From positions 3,485-67,484 of the forward strand of contig WGBD01000008.1 in NCBI GenBank assembly GCA_015494465.1: a stretch of DNA of 64,000 nt. The letters run 5' to 3'. The position numbers were made by a program, and so were the translations under genes. Under the pieces are notes generated by a model. The model was not told where the DNA came from. It was given only the letters and a program-made list of their open reading frames with translations, and made no database searches. Within the stretch, counting starts at the first letter, position 1, and each line of letters starts with the position of its first letter. Source of the stretch: Candidatus Omnitrophota bacterium. Its GTDB lineage: Bacteria > Omnitrophota > Gorgyraeia > S143-82. Shown here one piece after another: positions 28,393-41,717 of this stretch.

Positions 28393-28688
28393 ACCTTCCT
28401 CCCTTGCAATTGAACCTTCCCTATAAGACTGCGTTCACTATTAAACTTCAAAAAGAAGGCCTTATCAACCCAAAAATCCCGGTTTGTAACCCCCAAGCAG
28501 AACCAATATTGGGCCTGCAAGGGCCCTATGCCAGAGAGATACCGTCCTATCATTAACTGTGCAAATCAGATTTGCGTTGCTGAGGGGAAATGCGTATTGT
28601 ATGATTTTCTAGTGCGGTATGACGCTGGGCTCGTGTCTCCAATCCCAACTAGACAAACTTAAATCCGTTTACTTGGAGAAAAGAAGGC

Positions 28689-29408
28689 ATGAAGTACATA
28701 TTCTTGAGAGACGACGATGTATTCTCATTCCAAGAGCCATCCTTCAGGTGGTTTTGGAAAATAGCGGAATCTATGGATATACCTGTAATGTACGCGGTTA
28801 TCCCCGGCAAACTGGACGAGGACACCGCAAAAGTATTACTAGATAAAAAACGAGCCTCCCCGTCTAAGATCGACATAGCACAGCACGGTTACATGCACAT
28901 AAATCACAACCCGGATATATACCCAAAGTATGAGTTCGGTCCTTCGAGAAGCAAGGGTGCACAAAAAAGAGACCTTCTCGAAGGAATGAAGATAATGGAG
29001 CTTTCCTTTGGGCCTGACCTACCCCGTATATTCGTTCCTCCTTTCGACGGTTTTGACATAGTGACCTTAGAAGTGGCAGAAGAGCTGGGGATAGAGATCT
29101 TTTCTGCGGACAGTTACATCATAGGACAGAAATACAAATTTTTAAATCTACCCTACAGATTCGCAATAAACGACTACGCAGAAGATGGGACCCCGATCCC
29201 GGTTAGTTTTGAAACCATGTTGAAGAGGTACAGGCTCTACTACCTCTCAAATTACAAAGTAATTGGCATACTCCTCCACCACCAAGCATATCAAGATCCA
29301 TCTTCAAGAAGGGATCTGGCCTTATTTCTGAAATTCCTCGTGAAGGAAGAAACCAAAGGAGCAATCAAACTAATAACCGCCTCAAAGCTTCTCCAGTATA
29401 AGAGATAG
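28689..29408 (+). CDS. DUF2334 / polysaccharide-deacetylase-like family protein
   Basis: N-terminal FLRDDDV and QHGYMH motifs are characteristic of the DUF2334 deacetylase-like fold. Confidence 0.55.
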   Translation: MKYIFLRDDDVFSFQEPSFRWFWKIAESMDIPVMYAVIPGKLDEDTAKVLLDKKRASPSKIDIAQHGYMHINHNPDIYPKYEFGPSRSKGAQKRDLLEGMKIMELSFGPDLPRIFVPPFDGFDIVTLEVAEELGIEIFSADSYIIGQKYKFLNLPYRFAINDYAEDGTPIPVSFETMLKRYRLYYLSNYKVIGILLHHQAYQDPSSRRDLALFLKFLVKEETKGAIKLITASKLLQYKR

Positions 29409-30533
29409 CATCTTCTCGGCTCCCTTTAACTCAATCGAAGGGAATTCCCTCTGGTCTAAGTTCTTTAACTTTTCCATAAATCCTATTATCCTTGGCAGAA
29501 GTTCCTCCTCCTTGACAAAGATGAACACATTTGGGGCGGTATGGGTCAAAAACTCTGCCCGCACCCTCTGTTCGTTCAGACCAGGATAGGCATCGGTCCC
29601 CTCGAAAGGAACGAATACAGCAGGTACTCGATGCTTTATAATCTTCACAGCAGTGTTGTAAGAGGAAGTACAAATCGCCACTTTGGCCTTCCCTAAAAGC
29701 CCATCTATATCCCGAGCGTAAGGTATTACAACCACATTATCCGGGGCTTTTATATCACCCACATCCATCCTACTCGCAGGCCCTAACACAACTACAAACT
29801 TCTCTTGAGGCAACACCCTTGCTACCCCTATCGTGGCCCTCACGAGGCGGTCCATCACTATGCCCGATCCTCTCAACAGTAGGACATAGTCTTGACACGC
29901 AATATCCGTACGCCCACCTTGCTTGAAGGGCAAAGGCTCAGCGTCGATGTACCCAGTTAGGGAATACTTGCCGACGAACTCCTTTAGGAGAGTTCCCAAC
30001 AGAGGATTCTTCCTCATCCAAAACCTCAATTCCTCCTTCGAACAATGGAAAAACACATGGTCGACTACATCCATCCCCTTTTTTACTCTCTCCAGGTGCC
30101 TGTAATTCAGGATGGGGTAGCCCACACTGGAAAACACCTTAATCCCTCTTTTCCTAAGGGCCTTTGCCAATGCCATCATCTCTTTGAATATCTGGAATCT
30201 GCCGAAAGGGAAATACTCGAGGATGACGAAAGCATCGTCTTTAACGCGATCGAACAACCACCTGACCCTGCTGAGATCCACCAACTCCTTAGAGTAGGAA
30301 GGATCAAAAAAGGTCCTTTCTCCAAACACGGGGTAAGGCGAGAATAAAATAGGAAGATTAAGTGCGGTATAATCCAGGTACTCCTGAGCGGGAGATAAAC
30401 TAACTATCCTCAACCCTGCCCTGCTCGCGATAGCAAAAACCCTGGATGTATGGCCAAGACAGCCATAATGAGAAAAGACTATACTACCTTGACGGGCGCC
30501 TTTCAGATTGAGACGACTTTTATTCTCCCACAT
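29382..30533 (-). CDS. Putative GT-B fold glycosyltransferase, paralog 1
   Basis: A glycine/His N-terminal motif (GCLGHTSR) like GT1/GT28 donor-binding N-termini and a Rossmann-like C-terminal half. It is a paralog of 34597..35763, sharing the EYFP(F/L)G motif. Confidence 0.5.
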   Translation of the reverse strand: MWENKSRLNLKGARQGSIVFSHYGCLGHTSRVFAIASRAGLRIVSLSPAQEYLDYTALNLPILFSPYPVFGERTFFDPSYSKELVDLSRVRWLFDRVKDDAFVILEYFPFGRFQIFKEMMALAKALRKRGIKVFSSVGYPILNYRHLERVKKGMDVVDHVFFHCSKEELRFWMRKNPLLGTLLKEFVGKYSLTGYIDAEPLPFKQGGRTDIACQDYVLLLRGSGIVMDRLVRATIGVARVLPQEKFVVVLGPASRMDVGDIKAPDNVVVIPYARDIDGLLGKAKVAICTSSYNTAVKIIKHRVPAVFVPFEGTDAYPGLNEQRVRAEFLTHTAPNVFIFVKEEELLPRIIGFMEKLKNLDQREFPSIELKGAEKMLSLILEKL

Positions 30534-30536
30534 AGA

Positions 30537-31481
30537 TCATACAAAATTCCACCACTGCAAATAGCCGTGATAGGCCAGACACTTGGGGCAATCTCCCGCG
30601 TTAGCCCTTTTTATGACCGAAAAAAGTTTGTCTTCGTCTATTCCCGACACTATGTTTCCAACCGGCTCCATGTACAAACAAGGGAAGATGCTCCCATCGA
30701 CGGTGACGAAGAAACTGCAGGCGGGAGTGCGACAGGTAGTTATGAAGTCCATGTTCTCAGATTCCAGATAGCTGATAATGGGCTCCAGATAGGTAGAATA
30801 GATGAGATAATCAGATTCGCCGTACAAGTCCCTGTATTCCTTAGCTATTTCTTTCAAACTAGATCTGATCAGCCCAAAATCAGGCAGGAGTTCCTTTATG
30901 TCTATTGAATAGTTCCTGTGGTAATAGGAAGGCACCCTCTCAACCACCTTGAAGTACACTGGAATTTTCAGAGCTTTTCCAAGTTGCCAAACCCTGTGTA
31001 TCTGATGTTGATTAATTGAGGTGATCACCATCTTTAGGCTTAATGACATCCCCGGAGCCACCCTCCTCACAAACCTCACATTGTCTATCAGACTGCGGAA
31101 GGCACCATTATAACCGCGTTGCACATCGTGATACTTGCCTATACCATCTAGACTAAAGGTCATTTCCAGCCACCTAGCGTAGGGAGCAAACTTCACGACT
31201 AACTCTCGTATCTCCGGGCAAGTCCCATTCGAGGATATGTGTATACCCGTTATCTCATTCCTGAGCGCCCTTTTGAGGCAGTATTTGAGCAACCTGTAAA
31301 GATCTTCGTAAAGGAAAGGTTCACCACCCGTTATGGAAATGGAAAAGTTTTCGTACTTATCGAGAAAGGAGGTTATTCGACCGTAATCGATAGATGCAGG
31401 ACTCCTCCACAAAGAACACATCTTACACCTTAAATTGCATCTACTAGTTACCTCAAGCGTTATGTTAGAAACAGATCCCAT
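30537..31481 (-). CDS. Radical SAM enzyme with a C-terminal Cys cluster (SPASM/twitch-like)
   Basis: N-terminal CNLRCKMC (CxxxCxxC), the glycine motif SITGGEPF, and a C-terminal CRTPAC...C...CPKC cluster. Confidence 0.8.
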   Translation of the reverse strand: MGSVSNITLEVTSRCNLRCKMCSLWRSPASIDYGRITSFLDKYENFSISITGGEPFLYEDLYRLLKYCLKRALRNEITGIHISSNGTCPEIRELVVKFAPYARWLEMTFSLDGIGKYHDVQRGYNGAFRSLIDNVRFVRRVAPGMSLSLKMVITSINQHQIHRVWQLGKALKIPVYFKVVERVPSYYHRNYSIDIKELLPDFGLIRSSLKEIAKEYRDLYGESDYLIYSTYLEPIISYLESENMDFITTCRTPACSFFVTVDGSIFPCLYMEPVGNIVSGIDEDKLFSVIKRANAGDCPKCLAYHGYLQWWNFV

Positions 31482-31488
31482 ATCTCGA

Positions 31489-32439
31489 TTACACCAGAAA
31501 TTCCTCTAAATCCAGATCGACTGCGGTTATGAACTCCACATCTGAAATCCTCTCGGGAAAACTCATAACCCTGGAAGCCTTGCTTACGATAAAACCGTTA
31601 GCTATAAAAAGATCGACATAGGGTGCAGAGACGAGTACGCTAATCTTGTCAACTTTGGGATAGAATATCCCAATACCATCCAACAAGACAGACAGAGTCC
31701 AATCCGTTATCTCACCTGCAAAGTGCCAATCGATCAAATAAGCCGTGTCGTGGGAGTAACAGTCCTGCCTGATCAACAGACTCCCTATGTGTTTGTGGTC
31801 ATAAAAAACCTTAACGGCCCTATAGAAATCCCTAACTGGTTCCCTGTTAATCCTCTTCTCCCAAATACCACGCGACTTGTAAAAACGCCTAGGAGCAAAT
31901 GCGAGAAGCGAATCTACATATTCGCCAATGCCTATCTCCGTAACATCTATACGCCGATCCCGGGATCCTCTCGAGATCTTACCGTCTAATACATATACCC
32001 TACTGCACTCCTTCCAATTCATCTTGAAGTAAATCCTTTCCATATTATAATTGGGAACCGTGAGAAAGACATACTTCTTTGAAAGCAAATCCAAGTCCCT
32101 TCTGTATTCTAATAATCCTTTGGTTGCCATAACCTTGGCATTGTCCTTCTCTCCTTTGGTCCGAATGAAGTCAACACACCAGGCCAACTTTTTCTGCCCA
32201 CAAAGTTCGTTGGACAACAGAACAGCGCCAAATACTACGCACCCTGCTTCATCCCAATACAGATAAGTCTTGGTCTTATCCCCAAGGGAATACTTCCACT
32301 TGGCAACATCGACGAACTCTTTAGAACAGATAAAGTTTCGGGAAATAACTTCTTCTTGCTCCTGTAGATAAATTAGGCGGGACCAGTCGAGATCAAGGTT
32401 CTCCCTAAAACCTATAGAGGCCTCTTCACTCCAAAACAT
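31489..32439 (-). CDS. Hypothetical protein (316 aa) within the tailoring cluster
   Basis: Long ORF with island-like composition, tightly spaced between the rSAM and aminotransferase genes. No recognised motif. Confidence 0.5.
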   Translation of the reverse strand: MFWSEEASIGFRENLDLDWSRLIYLQEQEEVISRNFICSKEFVDVAKWKYSLGDKTKTYLYWDEAGCVVFGAVLLSNELCGQKKLAWCVDFIRTKGEKDNAKVMATKGLLEYRRDLDLLSKKYVFLTVPNYNMERIYFKMNWKECSRVYVLDGKISRGSRDRRIDVTEIGIGEYVDSLLAFAPRRFYKSRGIWEKRINREPVRDFYRAVKVFYDHKHIGSLLIRQDCYSHDTAYLIDWHFAGEITDWTLSVLLDGIGIFYPKVDKISVLVSAPYVDLFIANGFIVSKASRVMSFPERISDVEFITAVDLDLEEFLV

Positions 32440-32448
32440 AGCCCCTTT

Positions 32449-33555
32449 CTAATCCCCTTCCACGGAAGCTAGGGTTTCCACGACATACTTTATCTCATCT
32501 TCTTTGATAAAAGAAAAGAGCGGTAGATGGACGATCCTTTTACGATAGACTTCGGAATGTTCGCACTTGCCAAGAGAATACCTTGCAAATACCTTCCTCT
32601 CGTGTAAGGGCACATAGGGCCTGAGGGCATATACCCCCTTCGCTTCCAGTTTCGACAAAACATCATCGGAATCCGACACGAATACCGGGAAATTCTGCAA
32701 CACGACGAATTCCTCTTCGCGTTCTTTTAAGTAATCGATGTGGTAGTCGTCGCACAACTTCTCATACAGTCTTTTAGCGCTCCTACGGGATTTTATTATG
32801 TGGTTTATGTACCTGAACTTCACATTAATCGATACATAGTCCATCAAGTACATGGATGCAAATCTCTTGTTAAGACCTGTCAATCCGTAGTCGTCTCTCC
32901 AGATCTGGGTATAATCTCTTATCCTATTAAACCTCTCGTCGTCAAAGCAGATCATCCCACCTCCACCCCCGCAAGAAGAAATGGGCTTATAGTAGGAAAA
33001 GGAAAAACACGCGATGTCGAAAAAGGAACCCAAGTAGCGGTCTTTATACTTAGAACTCTCGGCCTGGCACACATCTTCTATAATAGCTACACCATACTTC
33101 TCCTTTATTCGCCTTATGCCTTCAATATCTGCCGGGAAGCCGAACATGTGAGGCACGATAATGGCCTTTATAGTTTCCCCATACTCATTGACTGCCTTTT
33201 CTATTTCTTGGAGGGATATAGAAAATCTCTCCGGCTCTACATCGACGATCACGGGCTCCGCTCCGGAATACAACACTGCGTAGCCTACTGCGGAATATGT
33301 GACGGAAGGCACGATGACCCTATCTCCCTTTCCTATACCTAGGGCGTAAAGGGACAGTTGAAGGGCATCGGTCCCGGAGTTTACCGCCACTGCAAACTTC
33401 CTTCCGATGTAACCCGCAAACCTTGCTTCGAACTCTTTTAACAATGTTTCTATGTCCGATAAACCATTCACACATGACAAAACTCGAGATAATTCCTCAG
33501 CATACTTAGATGCCAGAGACTTGTCCACCCTCATGGATTCATACCTAACCTTCAT
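32449..33555 (-). CDS. DegT/DnrJ/EryC1/StrS-family PLP-dependent sugar aminotransferase. The start is revised to the ATG at 33555, which overlaps the upstream rSAM stop as ATGA.
   Basis: AVAVNSGTDALQLSL, the spacing of Asp/Lys, and overall length match DegT-family aminotransferases. The 29-codon extension in the ORF track overlaps the upstream gene. Confidence 0.8.
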   Translation of the reverse strand: MKVRYESMRVDKSLASKYAEELSRVLSCVNGLSDIETLLKEFEARFAGYIGRKFAVAVNSGTDALQLSLYALGIGKGDRVIVPSVTYSAVGYAVLYSGAEPVIVDVEPERFSISLQEIEKAVNEYGETIKAIIVPHMFGFPADIEGIRRIKEKYGVAIIEDVCQAESSKYKDRYLGSFFDIACFSFSYYKPISSCGGGGGMICFDDERFNRIRDYTQIWRDDYGLTGLNKRFASMYLMDYVSINVKFRYINHIIKSRRSAKRLYEKLCDDYHIDYLKEREEEFVVLQNFPVFVSDSDDVLSKLEAKGVYALRPYVPLHERKVFARYSLGKCEHSEVYRKRIVHLPLFSFIKEDEIKYVVETLASVEGD

Positions 33556-34607
33556 ATATTCCCCTTCCGGAGCTCTAACCCGGGGATCTTCCTCTCGATC
33601 TTCACGATCTGCTCGGTCAGATGCCGATAGGCCTGAAACCAATTATTGTGATCTCGATCCATATACCTTATAGCCAACCCAGCATTGAAATTACTAAACT
33701 CCCTGTAGGACGCAGTGGGATTCTTCTTGAAAAAGTCCAATAACTTCCTTAAGTAGTCTATCACCACCCGTTGATTGATGACAATTCCATCGTCTTTTAT
33801 GTGGAAGAGAGTAAATTTATCCCGAATATTCTCTGGGAACGACAACAAGGTCCAATTGGGGAGGACTTTCCCATTAGGCTGAATCACCAGATCCATCCCA
33901 TATCCCATAGAAAGAGAATACATTTTTCCTATGAAGCCCTCTCCTCTGATACGCCTATATCTAGTCTTAAGCTCCCATGTCAACAAACGCTTGTAGCGTT
34001 CCAGAAATTTTCGCGCGCTCTCACTATCCCACGGAGCCAAAAAGGCCGGGTGCACTTCTATGTCGTAAAAGCCCAACCTTATCAATTCGAAAAAATTATC
34101 TTCCATAAAATCAACCTCATCTGGATGCACGGTCATCGTGGGATTTATGTCAACACCGCGATTGATGAGCTCGGCGACATTCCTTACATATACATCATAG
34201 GTAGCACCCGTTATCCCTAGCCGATGTCTTTGGTTTGAAGGCAATTCCCCGTCCAAGCCTGGCTCCACGGATATCCTGTTCTCCAAAACAAACCTAATGT
34301 GATCCTCCTGCCAATAGTACATGTTACTCTGAATGCTACAATCCCTATACGGAAATAACCCAAACACTCTATTGAATATGTACTTAACCTTATCCCAGAC
34401 GATTAAGGGCTCTCCTCCGGAGACAACGACATTGTGCCTTTTCATTCTCGGTAGTGCGGACAACAAAGTATCTATCTGGGCATAACTTAATTCCGTGGAA
34501 TTGGTCCTATACCTGAAGAAACAATAATCGCAATTCAGATTGCATTTATCCGTGACGAAAATCCAGAGATTTTTAAGAGGGACTTCTGCAAGTATCTTAG
34601 TTACCAT
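33552..34607 (-). CDS. Radical SAM enzyme (no obvious SPASM cluster)
   Basis: N-terminal FVTDKCNLNCDYCFF (CxxxCxxC) and VVSGGEPL; 351 aa. Confidence 0.8.
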   Translation of the reverse strand: MVTKILAEVPLKNLWIFVTDKCNLNCDYCFFRYRTNSTELSYAQIDTLLSALPRMKRHNVVVSGGEPLIVWDKVKYIFNRVFGLFPYRDCSIQSNMYYWQEDHIRFVLENRISVEPGLDGELPSNQRHRLGITGATYDVYVRNVAELINRGVDINPTMTVHPDEVDFMEDNFFELIRLGFYDIEVHPAFLAPWDSESARKFLERYKRLLTWELKTRYRRIRGEGFIGKMYSLSMGYGMDLVIQPNGKVLPNWTLLSFPENIRDKFTLFHIKDDGIVINQRVVIDYLRKLLDFFKKNPTASYREFSNFNAGLAIRYMDRDHNNWFQAYRHLTEQIVKIERKIPGLELRKGNI

Positions 34608-35763
34608 CAGTTACATCATTTAGTATTTCCCTTAAAAACACGGACTCTCCCTTAAAGTCCTCTTCTCTCAAGCAATGCGTTGGGGTTTCATCGCCCAACT
34701 CCCTTATCCATCCCGCTACCGTATTAACGGGCATCCTAGGACCTTCTATGACTCGAGCCGGAATAAACCTGCCTACGACAGAGGCCCTTGCTAATTGTTC
34801 CACGGCATCTAACGGGTATATAACGGTAGGCTTACGCCAATAAATCAATTTGGTGATAGTGTTATAGCCCGCCATGTTAATACTTAGTCTACACTTGCTT
34901 AACAAAAAGTTAAACTTCTCAAGCGGAAGAGATTCGTAAATCGTAACATTATCCGGTGCAACTTTGCGGACCTCCTCTACGAGATCATCCCTAGAAGAAG
35001 GCCCCAACACGAGAACGAACCTATCGTTTGGCATCCTCTTCGCCAAGACGATGGCCAAGGATATGATCCTATCGTTTATCACACCACCTCCCCGTGAAAC
35101 CATAACAAAATCCTTAGGGATGTCGAGAGGGGAAGTCTTTGTGTCTATGACGAAACCGGTGTACACGATCCTATCGCGATACCTATCCAGAATAGCCAAG
35201 AGGTCCTGCACCCCTCTAGAGATCTCGGCCATTTCCCGTAGATAGAGCCTTAAAAAGTCCTCCGTACTATGTATGAAAATTTTATCGTAGTACCTGCCTA
35301 TTATAGCATCTGCGCCTCTTACATGGCTCACATATCCACAAGAGCAATATATCCTCCTCACCTTAGGGCGTATCGCCTCCAGCACCGTGTAAAGCTCCTC
35401 CGTCCAAAAGGCGTCACCCAAGGGGAAGTATTCGGTAATGAAGACATCCGGAGAAAAGCTCTCTATCTCGGAGAGGATAACCGATATCCTCTCGCTCATG
35501 GCCTTCCTACCCCAAGGGCTGGACAAAACTTTAGAATGAAGGGGATCAAACCTGTCCACAAACATACCTTTTTTTGCGTACGAATGCGGTAATAAGATCA
35601 CTTTCCCCAATCTGCCAAAATCCAACAACCGCTGTCTCTTACCTCCTTGAAGGATCAGCAATTCGACATCCAAATTGGCCTTTAGGTAGGATAGTAAATT
35701 ATAGGTTCTCAGACTGTGGCCGAAGCTATTATAATGATTGTAATACAAACATATCTTAATCAT
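34597..35763 (-). CDS. Putative GT-B fold glycosyltransferase, paralog 2
   Basis: NSFGHSLRTYNLLS and EYFPLGDAF parallel GCLGHTSRVFAIAS and EYFPFGRFQ in 29382..30533. Confidence 0.5.
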   Translation of the reverse strand: MIKICLYYNHYNSFGHSLRTYNLLSYLKANLDVELLILQGGKRQRLLDFGRLGKVILLPHSYAKKGMFVDRFDPLHSKVLSSPWGRKAMSERISVILSEIESFSPDVFITEYFPLGDAFWTEELYTVLEAIRPKVRRIYCSCGYVSHVRGADAIIGRYYDKIFIHSTEDFLRLYLREMAEISRGVQDLLAILDRYRDRIVYTGFVIDTKTSPLDIPKDFVMVSRGGGVINDRIISLAIVLAKRMPNDRFVLVLGPSSRDDLVEEVRKVAPDNVTIYESLPLEKFNFLLSKCRLSINMAGYNTITKLIYWRKPTVIYPLDAVEQLARASVVGRFIPARVIEGPRMPVNTVAGWIRELGDETPTHCLREEDFKGESVFLREILNDVTDGN

Positions 35764-35780
35764 ACAGACCGATCGACATC

Positions 35781-36620
35781 ATGAATATTTACATTATTCT
35801 AAACCTCGCGATTGCCTTGTTCTTCTCTAGAACCGACTTATTATACAAAAGGATACCAAACATTCCCATTGCTATCGTCATTTTAATGGGCACGGGTCTC
35901 AATGCATATCTATTTCCAAACCGCATTCACATGATGATCCTAAATACGCTCCTTGCGACAGCCATAGCCTTCATCCTATTCTGGTTCGACATCTGGAAAG
36001 CAGGTGACGGTAAACTCCTTATTGCATTTACGGCTTTGACACCACCTTTTTTTATCGCCAACATAATTCCCCCACCTATTATCCTGACTTCCTTAGCTTT
36101 TGTACTAGGGCTAGGGGTATCCCTTCCGCCGATGGCCTTCTCTCTTTGGAAGACAGTGAGGAAAGATCCTCCAAAGATAATGGAAATAGCCTCTGATCTG
36201 GCGGAAAAGATAGCGATAGCCATTAGCACGATATGGATCATCCGGATATTTCTAAGGAACACCGTGAAGAACAACATGATCATGTACCTCCTAGCCTATG
36301 CTATAATCTCTAGCCTAAAAACGAATTGGCTTTCTAGACAAAATAAAACCTTGGTCCGAGGGATAACGGTGCTGGGATTGACAGGTCTGCTCGTGGCCTC
36401 CCGCTACCTTAGATACTTCGATGTGAAGTCCTATCTATTGATTACCACGGTCTACATCTCCATCTATTCCGCAATCGACTTGCTTTTAAAACACATTCCT
36501 GAGGAAGCAGCCAAAAAGCGCATACCTCTGGCCCCATTGATGGCCTGTGCTCAGATGCTAATAATATCAGCGCCTCCTCAGACAATGCAGTACATCTTTC
36601 GGATGCTACGGATAATATGA
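35781..36620 (+). CDS. A24-family aspartic peptidase (prepilin/preflagellin peptidase-like, TadV/CpaA type)
   Basis: Polytopic membrane protein with both catalytic Asp contexts: TDLLYKRIPN (first Asp plus the RIPN motif) and WKAGDGKLLIAF (the GxGDxKL motif). Confidence 0.7.
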   Translation: MNIYIILNLAIALFFSRTDLLYKRIPNIPIAIVILMGTGLNAYLFPNRIHMMILNTLLATAIAFILFWFDIWKAGDGKLLIAFTALTPPFFIANIIPPPIILTSLAFVLGLGVSLPPMAFSLWKTVRKDPPKIMEIASDLAEKIAIAISTIWIIRIFLRNTVKNNMIMYLLAYAIISSLKTNWLSRQNKTLVRGITVLGLTGLLVASRYLRYFDVKSYLLITTVYISIYSAIDLLLKHIPEEAAKKRIPLAPLMACAQMLIISAPPQTMQYIFRMLRII

Positions 36621-37819
36621 GAAGATCCCCGCCAATAACATCCATTAAGATAGACAAGATATCTCCCTATCAGTTAAAGAAACTCAAGAACATAATCCAG
36701 AATAGGCACCCCTTTCCACTACTGATATACAATGTCCCTTACTGTCTATTCCCAAAAGTGCCCCACTGGATAGTGGCTGAATACGACGACGGAGACAAAA
36801 CAGAACAGTGTCAACGATGCGCCTGGAACTTACTCTGTCCTGGCTTTCCTTTTGACAGAGTAAGATCTACTACGCCAACCCCCATTGAGGACAAACCAAA
36901 TGAGGTGGTCATAGAGATATGTGGAAAGTGCCAACTATCGTGTGAATTCTGTAGATTTAGCAACAGCTCAACTGTAATAATAGAAACCTCCCAGATCTTT
37001 TCCATAATAGACGAGGCCCATATGATGGGGGTATCAACCATAAGGTTGACCGGGGGAGAACCCCTGCTCCACCCGGAAATCGACATAATCGTAGGCTACA
37101 TCGAAGAAAAGGGTATGAATTGCATCGTAAATACGAACGGATTATCGAGAAGGATCGTTGAACTTGCCAAACGGCATAATAACTTACAAAATGTATTGGT
37201 TTCTATACAATATAAAGACCTGTTCAACAAAAAACTCATCATCCAAAAGTTAAACAATCTAGCCCTACTAAAGGCCCATACAGCTATCGTAAGGATCGGA
37301 ACCGTAATACCACAACGAGTGAACTATCGGCAATTCGTTTTTCGGATGGCAAAGGTCATATACAAATTGCCTGTATTCCTGTGGGAGTTGTACAGGCCAT
37401 TCTCTCCTGAATGTAGACCGATAACGATCGATAGGCAAGGCTGGGAATCCATAACTAAAGGAATAACCGAACTCAAAAAGAGAGGTTTTCCTCACAAACT
37501 GGGGATAGCCAACAGCGTTCCGTTCTGTTACATGGACGAGCTGTCCAAATTATTGCTGGGCAACTTTACCGACGATGGACATACTCGAATAGTCTTCTCA
37601 GCACAGTACGAAGAATTTATCCCGTCCTACTTCTCCAACTTACTACTTGGCAAGTCCCTGATGAAAGCGTGGGACAACCCTGTCCTTCGAGCAAGGAGAA
37701 ACCTGGGGTGTTTGCCCAAACAATGCGACAGCTGTACATTAAGAAATATCTGCAGAGGAGGGTCTTACTCTATGTGGCCCCAGGAAGACCCAATGATACC
37801 TAAAAATACCTCTTTTTAA
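36617..37819 (+). CDS. Radical SAM / SPASM-like enzyme with an N-terminal Cys-containing extension
   Basis: ICGKCQLSCEFC (CxxxCxxC) about 100 aa in, LTGGEPL, and a C-terminal CDSCTLRNICRGG cluster. Its start overlaps the A24 peptidase stop (ATGA). Confidence 0.8.
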   Translation: MRRSPPITSIKIDKISPYQLKKLKNIIQNRHPFPLLIYNVPYCLFPKVPHWIVAEYDDGDKTEQCQRCAWNLLCPGFPFDRVRSTTPTPIEDKPNEVVIEICGKCQLSCEFCRFSNSSTVIIETSQIFSIIDEAHMMGVSTIRLTGGEPLLHPEIDIIVGYIEEKGMNCIVNTNGLSRRIVELAKRHNNLQNVLVSIQYKDLFNKKLIIQKLNNLALLKAHTAIVRIGTVIPQRVNYRQFVFRMAKVIYKLPVFLWELYRPFSPECRPITIDRQGWESITKGITELKKRGFPHKLGIANSVPFCYMDELSKLLLGNFTDDGHTRIVFSAQYEEFIPSYFSNLLLGKSLMKAWDNPVLRARRNLGCLPKQCDSCTLRNICRGGSYSMWPQEDPMIPKNTSF

Positions 37820-38489
37820 ACTCGAGATAATCTCTATACCCAAAGGTGGTTACGGCGGAATAAAAGTAGCTTAATCCAGAAAGTTCCTTGGCCTTGCCTC
37901 TTCCCGATAACACCTTGCCCAACAATCGAAAGGCCTTTTCCATGTATTCCTTGGCCTTACAACCGCAGTAATCCAAGGTCAAGAATTGGAGGATGTACAC
38001 CGCAAGCAAGTCCCTCTCTGTATACGGCAATAACCCTTCTACCCCACTTTTGTAATATTGATACAAGTAGAAAAACAATTTCAGATCTTCCTCTGTAGCT
38101 ACTCGATCTTCCATAAGCTCGTCTTCGATGAGGTAAGAAAAGGACATAAATTTTTCCAAGTCGTTCCCGGTCAAAGCATCGCACAAGGACCTAAATTCGC
38201 GATTAGTGAGACCACCGCAGGCATCAGAAGAGACCGCCTGGATAAAACTAACCATATCAGAAGGAATCTCGTCATAATAGGCAAGGATAAAACCTGCCTT
38301 ACCCAACGCCAAGGCCCGGGGAGCCAGCATCACCTCAACATAGTCAACGACATCTTCCTTTCCAGCATAAGGGACGACTGAATCCTTTACATATGCCAAT
38401 AACTCGTCCAATCTAAGAGGGATATCCGCAGAGAAGGCGTAACCACCAATACCTAGGGTACAGAGCAAGATAACAAGCCACTTCATCAT
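37800..38489 (-). CDS. Secreted hypothetical protein (signal peptide MMKWLVILLCTLGIGGYAFSA). The start is revised to the ATG at 38489, behind a strong AGGGGAAGGGG Shine-Dalgarno sequence.
   Basis: Signal peptide followed by 200 aa with no recognised motif. It lies 10 nt downstream of precursor peptide 2. Confidence 0.55.
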   Translation of the reverse strand: MMKWLVILLCTLGIGGYAFSADIPLRLDELLAYVKDSVVPYAGKEDVVDYVEVMLAPRALALGKAGFILAYYDEIPSDMVSFIQAVSSDACGGLTNREFRSLCDALTGNDLEKFMSFSYLIEDELMEDRVATEEDLKLFFYLYQYYKSGVEGLLPYTERDLLAVYILQFLTLDYCGCKAKEYMEKAFRLLGKVLSGRGKAKELSGLSYFYSAVTTFGYRDYLEFKKRYF

Positions 38490-38499
38490 CCCCTTCCCC

Positions 38500-38835
38500 T
38501 TAGTAACAATGGGCATTGTGCGTGGTCAACCTGTTCTCATTGTGGTGAGATACCTTACAAGAGGCCTGCGTCGGCAACTCGTTCACATGAGACAAGTGAT
38601 AATTACCGTTTATGTGACGCGGGTGCTCTTTGGTTATAAGGCATCCGCTCTTTCCTAGATGCTCCGGGACGGTTCCATTGAAATGGGAAGTGTGACTACA
38701 AGAAGCATACCCTAGCTCGGCGATAGCTGACAAAAACCCCGAACACAAAATCCCGGCCTTTACGATCTCGTCCCGCCTCACAAAACCGGATTCGTCCGCT
38801 AAGAAGTCGTACAACTTACGAGTTATCCTGTTCAT
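38500..38835 (-). CDS. Precursor-like peptide 2 (111 aa): Flp-prepilin-like leader MNRITRKLYDFLADESG plus a His/Ser/Cys/Asn-rich C-terminal region ending ...NAHCY
   Basis: A perfect AGGAGG Shine-Dalgarno 3 nt upstream. It is a paralog of the upstream peptide, sharing DFLxDESGFVxRDxxVxxGI. The C-terminal half (SCSHTSHFNGT...HPRHINGNYHLSHVNE...SCKVSHHNENRLTTHNAHCY) is low-complexity and metal-ligand-rich. Confidence 0.6.
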   Translation of the reverse strand: MNRITRKLYDFLADESGFVRRDEIVKAGILCSGFLSAIAELGYASCSHTSHFNGTVPEHLGKSGCLITKEHPRHINGNYHLSHVNELPTQASCKVSHHNENRLTTHNAHCY

Positions 38836-38844
38836 ACCCCTCCT

Positions 38845-39090
38845 TCAGTAAGTACAGTACGAACTATGGGTAACATTCTTGTTCACATGATGCCAACTAC
38901 ATCCAGCCATTCCACTGGTGTGAACCGAACCATGGCTGGAGGTGTGGTTACAATGAGCTGAGGCCTCCAGGGTAGAAACCAATGACACCGCGGAAAGGAT
39001 GGCCATACCTTTTATTCCCGACCTAACCAGCGAATCCCGGGAAACAAAACCAGATTCGTCCATCAAAAAATCGCCTATCTTCTTTATCAC
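38845..39090 (-). CDS. Precursor-like peptide 1 (81 aa, GTG start): leader (M)IKKIGDFLMDESG plus core ...AHCNHTSSHGSVHTSGMAGCSWHHVNKNVTHSSYCTY containing His-Xaa-Ser triplets
   Basis: The GTG start at 39090 overlaps the TGA stop of the rSAM/SPASM gene (GTGA), with an AAGGA upstream. The 134-aa version in the ORF track would overlap the rSAM gene. The leader aligns with peptide 2. The core has HTS/HGS/HTS/HSS repeats and 4 Cys. Confidence 0.6.
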   Translation of the reverse strand: MIKKIGDFLMDESGFVSRDSLVRSGIKGMAILSAVSLVSTLEASAHCNHTSSHGSVHTSGMAGCSWHHVNKNVTHSSYCTY

Positions 39091-40454
39091 CCTATCCTTT
39101 GCATTCCCCACGCCTGAAGCTCCTCCTCGTACTCTTCGTAAAGACAAAAGAACAAGCGTATAACCGCGTTGTGGAATTCCAACATCGAAGAATGGCCAAG
39201 TATAGAGCCCGTCTCCTGGTAGGTGTACACAGGGCAGGTCCCCGTCCACGCTATAAAGGGATTACTTGGATCCACGATGTCCAGACAACTCGCAGTGGCC
39301 ATCCCTATAACGGTATCGTGGGCCAAGACATCTTTGTAGTCGTCTTTTAAGACATTACCGATGCGGAACATATCCCTATCTTCGAGCATCCTAGCCTCGT
39401 CGCAGGTGTAAACATCTCCGTTAGGCATGTAAGCAAGGACATTCCTCCCCGCACCACACGGACAACACATGTCCACATAACTGGGATCGGAATAATACAA
39501 TATCTTTTGGGCGACATTGGACATCATCCTCTCTTTAATTGTAATTCCCGACCTGTTCAGATTCAACATATATCTCACAGCTTTCTCGTAGACGCTCATA
39601 AATTCATCCAGAGAATAACCTATTTTCTGCCATGTCTCCGGATCCACATTGATCTTACTAAGGGGTCTAAAGGCTATAGTCTTGATGCCCATATCCACAT
39701 AAGAGTCTATTATCTCCTTCCAATACTTAAGGCTTTCCCTGCTTATGGTCGTGATCAACGAAACAGAAGCCGACCGTCTTTGCAATAGATCAATTGCCTT
39801 CCGCACTACATCGTGGGTAGGCCTTCCGTCGACATAACGGCGATTGAAGTCGTGGACCTGACTTGGCCCATCGTAAGACACGCAAATCCCAACGCCTTTT
39901 TCTTTCAAGAAATCCACCTTCTCTTCGTCAAGCAGAGAACCATTGGTCACCAAAGATATCTCCAGATCCTTCGTTCCGTTATTCCACTCCCTTGCCTTTT
40001 CAACCATAAACTTTAGGGTCTCCCAATTCAAAAGAGGCTCGCCTCCTTGAAATTCCAAGGAGACGCTGTACCTTCTACTATCAAACAAAAACTTCAAGAT
40101 GTGGGCAGCCACCTCCAAACCCATTCTCCTTTTTTCATTACTCCTAGCCTGGCAATACACACAATCGAAATTACATTCCGTGGTAAGGACCGCGATGTGA
40201 AGACCAACATCCGAAAAGAGATGGCTATTCAACGACCTGAAACGGCCCGTTATGTCGTCCAAATTAGCCTCTGAAATGACGATCCCTCGTCTTTCCAATT
40301 TCTCTAGCAGAAAGGGATCTAACTGATCGATGTCTCCCAATCGAAACTGAGAGATGTCATCTAAGAGGGTCCATCCCCCAAACCTATTAGAGATCAAGTA
40401 CTTACCCGTCTTCTCAAAGTATTGCACATAAAAAGGCAGAAATACCCGTTTCAT
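39087..40454 (-). CDS. Radical SAM/SPASM-domain peptide-maturase-like enzyme with an N-terminal RRE-like (PqqD-like) extension
   Basis: About 90 aa precede TECNFDCVYCQ (CxxxCxxC). The glycine motif is EFQGGEPLL. The C-terminal Cys-rich region (MCCPCGAGRN...YTCDEA...ASCLD...CPVYTY) is SPASM-like. The gene is translationally coupled to the precursor peptide. Confidence 0.8.
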   Translation of the reverse strand: MKRVFLPFYVQYFEKTGKYLISNRFGGWTLLDDISQFRLGDIDQLDPFLLEKLERRGIVISEANLDDITGRFRSLNSHLFSDVGLHIAVLTTECNFDCVYCQARSNEKRRMGLEVAAHILKFLFDSRRYSVSLEFQGGEPLLNWETLKFMVEKAREWNNGTKDLEISLVTNGSLLDEEKVDFLKEKGVGICVSYDGPSQVHDFNRRYVDGRPTHDVVRKAIDLLQRRSASVSLITTISRESLKYWKEIIDSYVDMGIKTIAFRPLSKINVDPETWQKIGYSLDEFMSVYEKAVRYMLNLNRSGITIKERMMSNVAQKILYYSDPSYVDMCCPCGAGRNVLAYMPNGDVYTCDEARMLEDRDMFRIGNVLKDDYKDVLAHDTVIGMATASCLDIVDPSNPFIAWTGTCPVYTYQETGSILGHSSMLEFHNAVIRLFFCLYEEYEEELQAWGMQRIG

Positions 40455-40666
40455 CGGTTAAAATCCCTACTGACAATTAACAACTCCATCAAGGCCTCTT
40501 CTATATCGTCGCCTTGAAACTGCACTTCCCACCTATTGCCATACGGCTTTATCGAAACCAGATTGTACCTGTTCAACACCTCGGAAGGCATCTTATCCAA
40601 GGGATAAACGCTCCTGGATAGAAACACGCGAGCATCTCCGTTTAGCAAGGGCAGGGTATCACTCAT
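40451..40666 (-). CDS. Small protein (71 aa) coupled (ATGA) to the rSAM/SPASM gene; a possible stand-alone peptide-binding (PqqD/RRE-like) or accessory protein
   Basis: ORF in tight operon context (overlaps on both sides). No motif was confidently recognised. Confidence 0.4.
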   Translation of the reverse strand: MSDTLPLLNGDARVFLSRSVYPLDKMPSEVLNRYNLVSIKPYGNRWEVQFQGDDIEEALMELLIVSRDFNR

Positions 40667-41033
40667 CCTCTGCTTCTAACTCTTTTATGAGCTCTTCTAT
40701 CTCCTTTTCTTCCGCTTCCTGAATAAATTTCGGAGACGAAGAGAACAGCGCCCGCTGTATGATCAACTTAGCTACTTCATTATTCTCCTTCAGCGAGGCA
40801 AAGTATCTCTCGTAATTTATAAGCTGGTTACCAAATTCCAGCTCGATGTCATCTATAGAAGCACCTCCCTTTGACTTCACATAAGCAATGTAATACTTTT
40901 CATCTTCGTCTATCACGATGTATGCCTTGCCCAAGAATGTATACGCTGCGTTGTAGATGGCCTGCAGGGAATAGAGGTTCTTATTGATCTTTATGGCCTT
41001 CCACCCCCCTTTATAAACAGCCATTCCTACCAC
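40659..41033 (-). CDS. Small acidic-tailed protein (124 aa), possibly an HxsD-like accessory protein
   Basis: Operon position directly upstream of the rSAM cassette. An internal ...QLINYERYFASLKE... segment loosely resembles the LLNDYxLRE signature recalled for HxsD. The C-terminal poly-Glu tail is EEKEIEELIKELEAEDE. Confidence 0.4.
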   Translation of the reverse strand: MVGMAVYKGGWKAIKINKNLYSLQAIYNAAYTFLGKAYIVIDEDEKYYIAYVKSKGGASIDDIELEFGNQLINYERYFASLKENNEVAKLIIQRALFSSSPKFIQEAEEKEIEELIKELEAEDE

Positions 41034-41549
41034 CTACCCTCCACAATAATATATCCTTCCATTGACCCTTAGGTCGTGATCAACCGTGAGGTTGTTCTCC
41101 ACTCGCAGATTCCCTTTAACTCTATCCTGAATCGTCAATGTATTCACCTGCAAATGACCTGCTACCGTACCATTACCTGTGACCTCCAAGTTACCGGTAA
41201 CTGTGACCTTGCCATTCGAAGGATCAATAGTTACCGCAGCCCTAGCAGGGTCACCTATGACGACCTTGCCCGTTGCTGTTATGTACAAAGAGCCATCGGT
41301 TGGATCGAAGGTTACCCTGGCTACATTTGAAGTGATATCCTTAAAAAATATCTCTTTCTGCAAAACAATAACCCCGTCCTCAAGGGCTTCACCCATGAGA
41401 CTGCTCCCCACCGAGAGCTTATAAGTCCTCAACTCTTCGTACTCGCCGTAAGGGGACGGATAATAGACGGAAATGGTTTTATGGCTCTCTGACCACCCAA
41501 AGACAGGGATCACCAAGGATAAAAGCAGCAACAAAAATGTATTCTTCAT
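41034..41549 (-). CDS. Secreted protein (171 aa) with a conserved VYYPSPYGEYEELR N-terminal module and bactofilin-like beta-helix repeats
   Basis: The signal peptide is MKNTFLLLLLSLVIPVFGW. The module is shared with 55831..57393. Repeats (GNLEVTGNGTVAGHLQVNTLTIQDRVKGNLRVENNLTVDHDLRVNG) resemble bactofilin/beta-helix repeats. It is the first gene of the rSAM operon. Confidence 0.55.
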   Translation of the reverse strand: MKNTFLLLLLSLVIPVFGWSESHKTISVYYPSPYGEYEELRTYKLSVGSSLMGEALEDGVIVLQKEIFFKDITSNVARVTFDPTDGSLYITATGKVVIGDPARAAVTIDPSNGKVTVTGNLEVTGNGTVAGHLQVNTLTIQDRVKGNLRVENNLTVDHDLRVNGRIYYCGG

Positions 41550-41717
41550 GGTTTATCCTAACTTCTTCCAACCACATCAAATATTAACACGCAAGCGTCA
41601 ATCAGGTCAAGGACTGCACGACATTGAGACCAGCGATTCAGCACACACCATTGCAAAAAATTGGCCACTGGGCAAGATTAGAAGGATCGCTCGCAGAGAC
41701 GAAACCCGTTCTCGCGC

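What the first reader, a model, noticed from the sequence alone, without database searches (positions are those of the whole stretch)
35781..36620. A24 prepilin-peptidase-like protease embedded in the rSAM cluster: candidate leader peptidase for the FLxDESG leaders
A polytopic membrane protein carries both catalytic-Asp contexts of TadV/CpaA-type A24 peptidases (TDLLYKRIPN and WKAGDGKLLIAF). No pilus assembly genes (CpaF/TadA ATPase, secretin, TadBC) are present anywhere in the island. The only class-III-like signal peptides nearby are the two precursor peptides 2 kb away. Using a prepilin peptidase as a RiPP leader protease would be a novel pairing. Its stop overlaps the start of a second rSAM/SPASM gene (ATGA), tying it to the maturation machinery.
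Basis: partly seen in the sequence, partly recalled or inferred. Interest (0 to 1): 0.75.

Follow-up and report, generated by a model that had tools for sequence, protein, structure and literature searches.

The report
Prepilin-type peptidase dedicated to rSAM peptides
A membrane protease of the kind that normally trims pilus subunits is built into a radical-SAM peptide-maturation (His-Xaa-Ser-type) gene cassette whose small precursor proteins carry a pilin-style leader, and the pairing recurs across many bacterial and archaeal lineages, so it is very probably the enzyme that cuts off their leaders.

Summary

The surrounding low-GC island is a divergent His-Xaa-Ser (Hxs) system: HxsD-like, HxsB-like and two HxsA3-like precursors.

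- Of 71 dereplicated A24 relatives found by A24 similarity alone, 50 sit beside HxsB, HxsD or precursor genes.
- Of 22 metagenome loci found by precursor similarity alone, with at least 4 kb of flank, 20 carry the A24 gene. It is almost always translationally coupled to a homologue of the 400-aa rSAM gene.
- No pilus genes occur in any locus.

The FLxDESG motif is the Flp prepilin leader (RFLKDESG|ATAIEYG), in the same register. What follows the Gly looks like an ordinary Sec signal peptide. Canonical HxsA proteins, whose clusters lack an A24, lack this leader.

Best reading: a dedicated leader peptidase cutting after the FLxDESG glycine. No experiment supports this yet, and the exact cut site is inferred. 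I found no published description.

The parts
35781..36620 (+). A24 (GxGD) membrane aspartyl peptidase, 279 aa. It has no N-terminal methyltransferase domain. The predicted catalytic residues are D19 (codon 35835-35837) and D76 (codon 36006-36008). The C-terminal R-I-P-L-A-P motif corresponds to the PilD-family xPFxP motif.
36617..37819 (+). Radical SAM enzyme, 400 aa, translationally coupled to the A24 gene (ATGA overlap). It is not an HxsC orthologue and is probably the second maturase of this variant.
   Evidence: Pfam Radical_SAM 52 bits; all NCBIfam hits far below cutoff. Overlap verified. Homologues lie immediately downstream of the A24 gene in 16 genome loci and 31 metagenome loci, with gaps of -78 to +14 nt.
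37800..38516 (-). Conserved 238-aa protein with a Sec-type signal peptide, function unknown, located between the precursors and the rSAM gene.
   Evidence: No Pfam or NCBIfam hit. A positional homologue cluster of about 266 aa occurs in 7 loci, and 215-228-aa genes occupy the same position in L147 and L150.
38500..38835 (-). Precursor 1 (111 aa). Flp-like leader M1-G17 (MNRITRKLYDFLADESG, 38785-38835), spacer F18-G28, h-region I29-A44 ending in GYA, then a His/Ser/Cys-rich core ending in C-Y.
   Evidence: Translation. Weak NF038309 HxsA3 hit, 18.5 bits. Member of a 44-sequence precursor family.
38845..39111 (-). Precursor 2 (88 aa, GTG start). Flp-like leader residues 1-21 (VGNAKDRVIKKIGDFLMDESG, 39049-39111), spacer F22-G32, h-region I33-A52 ending in ASA, then a core ending in C-T-Y.
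   Evidence: Gene call in the identical contig L001. Translation. NF038309 HxsA3 24.6 bits. Alignment A1.
39087..40454 (-). HxsB-like radical SAM/SPASM peptide maturase, 455 aa.
   Evidence: TIGR03978 HxsB is the top hit at 315.9 bits, E 4e-94, below the 370 cutoff. Pfam Radical_SAM, Fer4_12 and a weak SPASM hit.
40451..40666 (-). Small 71-aa protein between HxsD and HxsB. It is conserved only in close relatives and its function is unknown.
   Evidence: Genes of 65 and 78 aa occupy the same position in L147 and L150.
40659..41033 (-). HxsD-like protein (121-124 aa), the presumed precursor-binding partner of the maturase.
   Evidence: TIGR03976 HxsD 47.7 bits against a cutoff of 50. Pfam PF27806 HxsD is on record for the identical gene in L001.
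41034..41549 (-). Secreted bactofilin-like beta-helix protein, 171 aa, first gene of the Hxs operon.
   Evidence: Pfam Bactofilin 34.4 bits. Homologues occupy the same position in L017, L033, L038, L039, L077, L084, L094 and L102.
28689..35763 (.). Accessory operon of the island: DUF2334, two GT-like proteins, two further rSAM enzymes, a DegT-type aminotransferase and an unknown 316-aa protein. It is co-conserved with the A24-rSAM pair in bacterial relatives and may glycosylate the peptide (inferred).

Best explanation
The 279-aa protein is an active A24/GxGD aspartyl peptidase recruited as the dedicated leader peptidase of a variant His-Xaa-Ser (Hxs) peptide-maturation system.

The two precursors are tripartite:
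- an N-terminal basic segment ending in the Flp-prepilin leader motif F-L-x-D-E-S-G;
- a segment that looks like a complete Sec signal peptide (charged n-region, 14-18-residue h-region, AxA);
- a His/Ser/Cys-rich core ending in an aromatic residue.

Proposed sequence of events:
1. The core is modified in the cytoplasm by the HxsB-like rSAM enzyme with HxsD, and by the A24-coupled 400-aa rSAM enzyme.
2. The h-region inserts into the membrane with the N-terminus in the cytoplasm.
3. The A24 enzyme, whose two Asp residues sit at the cytoplasmic membrane face, cuts after the invariant Gly of FLxDESG. That is G17 of the 111-aa precursor and G21 of the 88-aa precursor, the position where TadV/CpaA cut Flp prepilin.
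4. The remainder is exported, then either released at AxA by signal peptidase I or kept as a membrane-anchored surface peptide.

Shown here: family, fold and conserved active site of the protease; the Hxs identity of the cluster; two-way conserved gene linkage; the Flp-type leader; and the absence of that leader in Hxs systems that lack an A24.

Inferred: that cleavage occurs at all, the exact bond, the order of steps and the biological role. By analogy with the E. coli HXS system the role may be an envelope-located anti-phage effector.

For: 2. Cluster identity. HxsB 316 bits, HxsD 47.7 bits, precursors matching HxsA3.

3. Forward linkage. 73 genome loci were retrieved by A24 similarity only. 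Of these, 40 have HxsD-like and 38 have HxsB-like genes, usually directly adjacent in the order A24-HxsD-HxsB-precursor in archaea. After dereplication at 60% identity, 50 of 71 A24 clusters are Hxs-linked. The nearest relatives, at 83%, 38% and 29% identity, sit in fully syntenic cassettes.

4. Reverse linkage. 67 metagenome loci were retrieved by the precursor only. Of the 22 with at least 4 kb downstream, 20 have the A24 gene, representing 14 distinct 60% clusters. It is coupled to the rSAM400 homologue.

5. Leader. In 44 precursors F(-6) is 43/44, E(-2) 44/44 and G(0) 44/44. In 55 distinct Flp pilins the leader is R-F-L-K-D-E-S-G|ATAIEY in the same register. A 13-residue HMM built only from Flp leaders ranks Hxs precursors as its top 23 hits among 8409 ORFs. 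TadV/CpaA remove the Flp leader at GXXXXEY (PMC10934763).

6. Covariation. Canonical HxsA from the Aeromonas plasmid and a short HxS peptide from Novosphingobium have clusters with HxsC and no A24. Both have plain Sec signal peptides and no FLxxExG extension. E. coli HxsA likewise has a 22-residue signal peptide (PMC13128918).

7. Pilus machinery. No conserved pilus ATPase, platform or secretin cluster appears in the loci.
Against: - There is no biochemical evidence of cleavage.
- The Pfam score is marginal for this particular sequence, and sequence search alone does not reach FlaK.
- The proposed cut site lies 11 residues from the hydrophobic segment. In every characterised A24 substrate the scissile bond abuts the hydrophobic segment.
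- A second conserved Gly (K-x-G, 40/44) does abut the h-region.
- The invariant F/E/G positions could instead be the HxsB/HxsD recognition motif.
- About a fifth of the A24 relatives sit at the end of tandem rSAM arrays with no Flp-leader ORF nearby. The subfamily's substrate may therefore be broader than these peptides, or different.
- One precursor locus with long flanks, seen twice as L132 and L134, has no A24 within 9 kb.
- The rest of the source genome could not be inspected for a tad locus.
Confidence: 0.65

Rival explanations
1. The enzyme and substrates are the same, but the cut is after the second conserved glycine (K-x-G|h-region: G28 of the 111-aa precursor, G32 of the 88-aa one). 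The peptides would then behave as true class III signal peptides. The product would keep its hydrophobic helix as an N-terminal anchor, and FLxDESG would be only the recognition motif for HxsB/HxsD.
For: The G at +11 is conserved in 40/44 precursors, with S in 3 and A in 1. It is preceded by K at -3 and followed directly by the hydrophobic stretch. This is the geometry of all known A24 substrates. The catalytic Asp residues are predicted at the cytoplasmic membrane face from the helix boundaries and the positive-inside rule.
Against: The h-region is short (14-18 residues), rich in Ala, Ser and Gly, and followed by an AxA site. That is typical of a cleavable Sec signal rather than a pilin-type anchor. 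The FLxDESG motif matches the Flp cleavage context in exact register. Hxs systems without an A24 lack precisely the part upstream of the first Gly and keep the signal-peptide-like part.
Confidence: 0.2
2. The gene is an ordinary TadV/CpaA-type prepilin peptidase serving a Flp/Tad pilus encoded elsewhere in the genome, and its position in the island is incidental.
For: It belongs to the same Pfam family. Its short form, lacking a methyltransferase domain, resembles TadV/CpaA. Only 64 kb of the genome can be inspected.
Against: Linkage to Hxs genes is conserved in both directions across phyla and domains. The gene is translationally coupled to an rSAM gene. No tad, cpa or pil genes occur in the window or in about 140 related loci. 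The family is rare, with 17 representatives at E below 1e-3 among 1.8 billion proteins, and has a 165-residue C-terminal extension that is conserved across the family.
Confidence: 0.04
3. The A24-like protein acts on something other than the HxsA3-like peptides. Candidates are another membrane or secreted product of rSAM-rich clusters, or a role as a membrane scaffold or export partner for the coupled rSAM enzyme.
For: Relatives in CPR bacteria, Omnitrophota and a Gammaproteobacteria MAG close arrays of 5-10 tandem rSAM genes where no Flp-leader peptide was found. Coupling to the rSAM400 gene is tighter than linkage to the precursors.
Against: Strict conservation of both Asp residues and of the GD-x-K motif argues for catalysis. 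The precursors carry the cognate Flp leader. In archaea the A24 gene directly precedes HxsD-HxsB-precursor without an rSAM400 gene. The other secreted proteins of the island have plain Sec signals.
Confidence: 0.1

Closest known systems
TadV / CpaA / FppA prepilin peptidases acting on Flp prepilins (type IVc / Tad pili)
   Same: Both belong to the A24 GxGD aspartyl protease family and lack an N-terminal methyltransferase domain. The substrate leader ends in the same F-L-K/x-D-E-S-G motif.
   Different: No Tad/Cpa assembly genes are linked. The substrate has no G|XXXXEY hydrophobic pilin N-terminus and no Pfam Flp_Fap hit. The enzyme carries a conserved extension of about 165 residues with extra helices. 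It is encoded within an rSAM maturation cassette.
FlaK / PibD / EppA archaeal class III signal peptidases
   Same: FlaK (3S0X) is the only strong structural match. The archaeal members of this Hxs-linked clade carry the Arc_PepC C-terminal domain. PibD is known, from my own knowledge, to process non-pilin substrates such as sugar-binding proteins, which is a precedent for A24 use outside pili.
   Different: These are housekeeping enzymes for archaellins and pilins. They are not known to be paired with peptide-modifying rSAM enzymes. Their cleavage site directly abuts the hydrophobic segment.
His-Xaa-Ser (HXS) system HxsABCD, an anti-phage defence in E. coli (PMC13128918)
   Same: HxsB-like and HxsD-like proteins and a His/Ser-rich exported substrate that needs N-terminal processing (PMC13128918).
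   Different: There is no HxsC orthologue; an unrelated 400-aa rSAM enzyme is present instead. The precursors are short HxsA3-like peptides without a peptidoglycan-binding domain. They have an extra Flp-type leader. A dedicated A24 peptidase is present, and in bacteria a co-conserved glycosyltransferase/aminotransferase operon as well. In E. coli HXS no protease was identified.
RiPP leader peptidases (C39 peptidase-containing ABC transporters, LanP subtilisins, S8/M16 proteases)
   Same: The logic is the same: a dedicated protease encoded in the cluster removes an N-terminal leader ending in a small residue after modification.
   Different: The catalytic class is different (an intramembrane-type aspartyl GxGD protease), and the leader is borrowed from Flp prepilins. 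I found no report of an A24 enzyme in this role.

Membership tests
Peptidase family A24 (GxGD prepilin-type aspartyl peptidases) | Significant match to the family profile (Pfam PF01478) | tested here: met
   26.9 bits against a gathering cutoff of 26.5, E 7e-6. This is marginal. Relatives score up to 43.7 bits.
Peptidase family A24 (GxGD prepilin-type aspartyl peptidases) | Two catalytic aspartates, the second within a G-x-G-D / x-G-D-x-K motif | tested here: met
   D19, and A74-G75-D76-G77-K78. D19 is 93/93 and G75, D76, K78 are each 97/97 in relatives.
Peptidase family A24 (GxGD prepilin-type aspartyl peptidases) | Polytopic membrane fold of FlaK | tested here: met
Peptidase family A24 (GxGD prepilin-type aspartyl peptidases) | Endoproteolytic removal of an N-terminal leader after Gly | not testable with these tools
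   Requires co-expression or an in vitro assay.
TadV/CpaA role (Flp pilus prepilin peptidase) | Encoded with, or serving, a Flp/Tad pilus assembly system | tested here: not met
   No tad, cpa or pil genes in the island, in the window, or in about 140 related loci. The rest of the genome was not inspected.
Flp prepilin (Pfam PF04964) | Leader ending in F-L-K-D-E-S-G | tested here: met
   DFLADESG and DFLMDESG, compared with RFLKDESG in 55 Flp pilins. The Flp-leader HMM ranks the precursors on top.
Flp prepilin (Pfam PF04964) | Mature N-terminus xxxxEY followed directly by a hydrophobic helix, with a Pfam Flp_Fap match | tested here: not met
   FVRRDEIVKAG and FVSRDSLVRSG follow the Gly. There is no Flp_Fap hit at E <= 0.01.
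His-Xaa-Ser system (NCBIfam HxsA-D) | HxsB radical SAM maturase (TIGR03978) | tested here: inconclusive
   Top hit at 315.9 bits, E 4e-94, but below the equivalog cutoff of 370. It is a divergent homologue.
His-Xaa-Ser system (NCBIfam HxsA-D) | HxsD (TIGR03976 / PF27806) | tested here: inconclusive
   47.7 bits against a cutoff of 50. A Pfam HxsD hit is on record for the identical gene.
His-Xaa-Ser system (NCBIfam HxsA-D) | HxsC second radical SAM maturase (TIGR03977) | tested here: not met
   The best scores are 48 and 36 bits for two other island rSAM proteins, against a cutoff of 268. HxsC is not among the 25 best hits shown (of 53) for the 400-aa rSAM protein.
His-Xaa-Ser system (NCBIfam HxsA-D) | His-Xaa-Ser repeat substrate (HxsA / A3 / A4 models) | tested here: not met
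   HxsA3 scores 24.6 and 18.5 bits against a cutoff of 65. The window peptides have scattered H-x-S/H-x-N motifs rather than tandem repeats. Archaeal relatives do have clear (SHG/SHS)n repeats.
RiPP-like pathway | Short precursor with leader and core, encoded next to a peptide-modifying enzyme | tested here: met
RiPP-like pathway | Demonstrated post-translational modification of the core | not testable with these tools
   Needs mass spectrometry of the product.

The most novel reading that the evidence does not exclude
A previously undescribed, cross-domain class of rSAM-matured exported peptides (HxsA3/A4-like) uses a Flp-prepilin leader and a dedicated A24 aspartyl peptidase for membrane-coupled leader removal. 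This would be the first RiPP-type pathway with a prepilin peptidase as leader protease. It would supply a missing processing enzyme for a branch of the HXS anti-phage family that is widespread in DPANN archaea, Omnitrophota and Planctomycetota.
Probability: 0.55. Interest if true: 0.8.

Novelty: new variant of a known kind. Interest (0 to 1): 0.72.

Why it matters
If true, it adds a new catalytic class, the GxGD intramembrane-type aspartyl proteases, to the enzymes that remove leaders from ribosomally made, post-translationally modified peptides. It also shows that the Flp prepilin leader has been reused as a portable processing tag outside pilus biology.

It gives an experimentally tractable handle on the Hxs family, which was shown only in 2026 to be an anti-phage system whose effector needs unexplained N-terminal processing (PMC13128918). 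The handle is one protease, one short substrate and two candidate glycines.

The cassette is common in poorly understood lineages (DPANN archaea, Omnitrophota, Planctomycetota). It could therefore be a widespread envelope-level defence or surface-modification system there.

For annotation, these A24 genes should not be read as evidence of pili.

Tried and rejected
- Sequence searches of the PDB with the protein and with the family profile gave nothing relevant. Only fold comparison reached FlaK.
- The word-indexed protein search found just two close homologues. The exhaustive HMMER search was needed.
- PADLOC gave only generic viperin-like rSAM hits.
- Rfam found nothing in the window.
- The first attempt to seed a metagenome scan with all 28 leaders failed for lack of a conserved stretch. 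I used the bacterial subset instead, so the reverse test covers bacterial-type precursors only.
- A viral-contig scan with the precursor found nothing.
- Cluster look-ups gave no organism names, so the source taxon remains unknown.
- Haft and Basu 2011 is not held in the library.
- Literature searches for prepilin peptidase combined with radical SAM, RiPP or leader peptide found nothing relevant.
- P0005 and P0008 lie on contigs too short to inform.
- I considered the 400-aa rSAM protein as an HxsC orthologue and rejected it on scores.
- I considered the peptides as genuine Flp pilins and rejected that: no XXXXEY, no Flp_Fap hit, and a Sec-like AxA site.

Full report
**The gene**

Window 35781-36620 (+) is a 279-aa ORF. 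Pfam assigns residues 7-113 to Peptidase_A24 at 26.9 bits, just above the 26.5 gathering score. NCBIfam has no model for it, and sequence search of the PDB finds nothing.

An exhaustive HMMER search of 1.8 billion representatives found only 17 relatives at E < 1e-3. Most are 270-300 aa and match over their full length. In their alignment D19, I25, N27, W72, G75, D76 and K78 are invariant, and a C-terminal R-[IV]-P-F-A-P motif is nearly so. Across 98 relatives gathered later from two independently seeded searches, D19 is 93/93 and G75-D76-x-K78 is 97/97.

The stop codon overlaps the start of the next gene as ATGA.

**The neighbourhood**

The gene lies in a 13-kb island of 44-47% GC, between dapA and uvrA, in a genome of 55-57% GC.

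Convergent with the A24-rSAM pair is an operon encoding, in order:
- a secreted bactofilin-like protein;
- an HxsD-like protein (TIGR03976, 47.7 bits against a cutoff of 50);
- a 71-aa protein;
- an HxsB-like rSAM/SPASM maturase (TIGR03978, 316 bits, E 4e-94, cutoff 370);
- two small proteins of 88 and 111 aa that weakly match HxsA3;
- a secreted 238-aa protein.

Divergent from the A24 gene is an operon with two GT-like proteins, two more rSAM enzymes, a DegT aminotransferase and a DUF2334 protein. No protein reaches the HxsC model.

The island is thus a divergent His-Xaa-Ser (Hxs) system. The canonical HxsABCD system was shown in 2026 to be an anti-phage defence. Its exported effector HxsA needs rSAM-dependent modification and an N-terminal cleavage for which no protease was identified (PMC13128918).

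**Test of co-occurrence, forward direction**

A scan of one genome per GTDB species, using a pattern from the A24 alignment and confirmed by tblastn to the window protein, returned 73 loci. They come from Woesearchaeota and other DPANN archaea, MAGs labelled Methanosarcinales, Omnitrophota, Planctomycetota, Desulfobacteraceae, Firestonebacteria, Margulisiibacteriota and Patescibacteria.

Searching their ORFs with the island proteins showed HxsD-like genes in 40 loci, HxsB-like genes (at least 200 bits) in 38, and precursor homologues in about 32. In archaea the order is A24-HxsD-HxsB-precursor with the genes abutting. In bacteria the A24 gene is immediately followed by a homologue of the 400-aa rSAM gene, and the sugar-type operon is often present as well.

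Dereplicated at 60% identity, 50 of 71 A24 clusters have an Hxs component in the locus. Many of the rest are contig fragments. The nearest relatives of the window protein (83%, 38% and 29% identity) lie in fully syntenic cassettes, two of them again beside dapA.

All-against-all clustering of the ORFs found no conserved pilus ATPase, platform or secretin family.

**Test of co-occurrence, reverse direction**

A metagenome scan seeded only with bacterial-type precursor leaders returned 67 loci. Among the 22 with at least 4 kb downstream of the precursor, 20 contain an A24-like gene, representing 14 distinct 60% clusters. The two exceptions, L132 and L134, are the same sequence.

In 21 of the 23 loci where both genes were found, the A24 gene and the rSAM400 homologue are on the same strand with a gap of -111 to +14 nt, all but one within -78 to +14.

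**The leader**

I aligned 44 precursors on their invariant glycine, called G0. The family consensus is:

L-P-K-[IL]-K-K-K-[IV]-x-x-F-L-x-x-E-x-G0-K-I-S-K-E-x-[LI]-[LIV]-K-x-G-(14-18 hydrophobic residues)-AxA-(His/Ser-rich core ending in Y, W or C)

Conservation is F(-6) 43/44, E(-2) 44/44, G0 44/44, K/R(+4) 44/44 and G(+11) 40/44.

RefSeq-annotated Flp family type IVb pilins read MTKLFTRFLKDESG|ATAIEYGLI.... In 55 distinct Flp pilins the leader is R(-7) F(-6) L(-5) K(-4) D(-3) E(-2) S(-1) G(0). TadV/CpaA remove the Flp leader at this GXXXXEY site (PMC10934763).

The window peptides have DFLADESG|F and DFLMDESG|F. Close relatives have QFLSDESG|F, GFLMDETG|F and SFLSDESG|F.

A 13-residue HMM built only from Flp leaders and run against all 8409 ORFs of the fetched loci returns Hxs precursors as its top 23 hits, and 25 of its 29 hits overall. 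Precursors make up 1.4% of those ORFs.

What follows the glycine is not a pilin N-terminus. It has the length and make-up of a whole Sec signal peptide.

Canonical HxsA from an Aeromonas plasmid, and a short HxS-repeat peptide next to hxsB/hxsC in a Novosphingobium plasmid, come from clusters without an A24 gene. Both start directly with such a signal peptide and lack the FLxxExG extension. The Flp-type leader and the A24 gene therefore appear and disappear together while HxsB and HxsD stay. This argues that the motif serves the peptidase rather than, or as well as, the maturase.

**Mechanism proposed**

The peptides are modified in the cytoplasm by the rSAM enzymes. They insert with the N-terminus in the cytoplasm. 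They lose the Flp-type leader to the A24 enzyme at the cytoplasmic face, after G17 or G21. They are then exported, and either released at AxA or retained in the membrane.

Only the gene-level and sequence-level statements are shown. Cleavage, the bond cut and the order of steps are inferred.

The main uncertainty is the site. The second conserved Gly (K-x-G) directly precedes the h-region, as in every characterised A24 substrate, so it remains a serious alternative.

**Caveats**

- The Pfam hit is marginal for this sequence.
- The genome scan was seeded with a motif of this subfamily.
- The reverse test covers only bacterial-type leaders.
- Metagenome loci are partly redundant.
- About a fifth of the A24 relatives close arrays of 5-10 tandem rSAM genes without any detectable Flp-leader peptide.
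- The source organism is an unnamed MAG, and its remaining genome could hold a tad locus.

**Comparison and novelty**

The enzyme works like TadV/CpaA (same family, same leader motif) and folds like FlaK. It fails the contextual feature of a pilus peptidase.

The cluster works like HXS but lacks HxsC and has sub-threshold HxsA, HxsB and HxsD scores.

Full-text searches found no paper linking prepilin or A24 peptidases with radical SAM or RiPP leader processing. The HXS paper mentions no peptidase. Curated database comments could not be checked.

I rate this a new variant of known kinds, of high interest to RiPP, rSAM, type IV pilus and phage-defence specialists, and directly testable.

Noticed in passing
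L015, L026, L035, L042, L052, L054, L058, L061-L063, L065, L066, L072, L074 (A24 gene at about 9.6-11.3 kb in most): In Patescibacteria (CPR), some Omnitrophota and a Gammaproteobacteria MAG, the A24-like gene closes an array of 5-10 tandem radical SAM genes. No HxsB, HxsD or Flp-leader ORF is detectable there. The substrate and purpose of these arrays are unknown.
   Followed up: partly
L045:19554-20135 (-) and L013:2501-4138 (-): In L045 an HxsD-like domain is fused N-terminally to a precursor-type leader plus h-region, which suggests HxsD acts on or next to the leader. L013 encodes a 545-aa 'giant' precursor with the same leader and a long S/T-rich tail of STT repeats.
   Followed up: no
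window 28400-41700: The whole cassette is a low-GC island (44-47% against 55-57%) between dapA and uvrA. Relatives L002 and L150 also lie next to dapA. No tRNA gene, integrase or terminal repeats were looked for.
   Followed up: partly
window 28689-35763: An operon of two GT-like proteins, a DegT aminotransferase, two extra rSAM enzymes, a DUF2334 protein and an unknown 316-aa protein is co-conserved with the A24-rSAM pair in bacterial relatives (L055, L057, L073, L077, L084, L102, L147, L150). It may build and attach a modified sugar to the Ser-rich peptides.
   Followed up: partly
window 37800-38516 (-) and 41034-41549 (-): Two secreted proteins are conserved parts of the cassette: an unknown 238-aa protein and a bactofilin-like beta-helix protein that also has a weak DUF7305 hit. 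Their roles are unknown.
   Followed up: no
L146:3344-3619 (Novosphingobium plasmid NZ_CP039699.1): A 91-aa peptide with a Sec signal and (SHS/SHA)n repeats ending in SSSY sits upstream of annotated hxsB/hxsC but is annotated only as a hypothetical protein. It is probably an unrecognised short HxsA.
   Followed up: partly
window 35706-35735 (+): The best sigma-70-like promoter match of the region (TTCTCA-18-TATAAT, 10 of 12) lies 46 nt upstream of the A24 start, inside the 5' end of the divergent GT-like ORF. The true start of that ORF may therefore be further downstream, as in the 340-aa call in L002.
   Followed up: no
window 44515-48561 (-): A 1348-aa ORF overlapping the uvrA start carries only weak PMM and CofD Pfam hits in the precomputed table for the identical contig L001. 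This is an unusual large fusion and was not examined.
   Followed up: no
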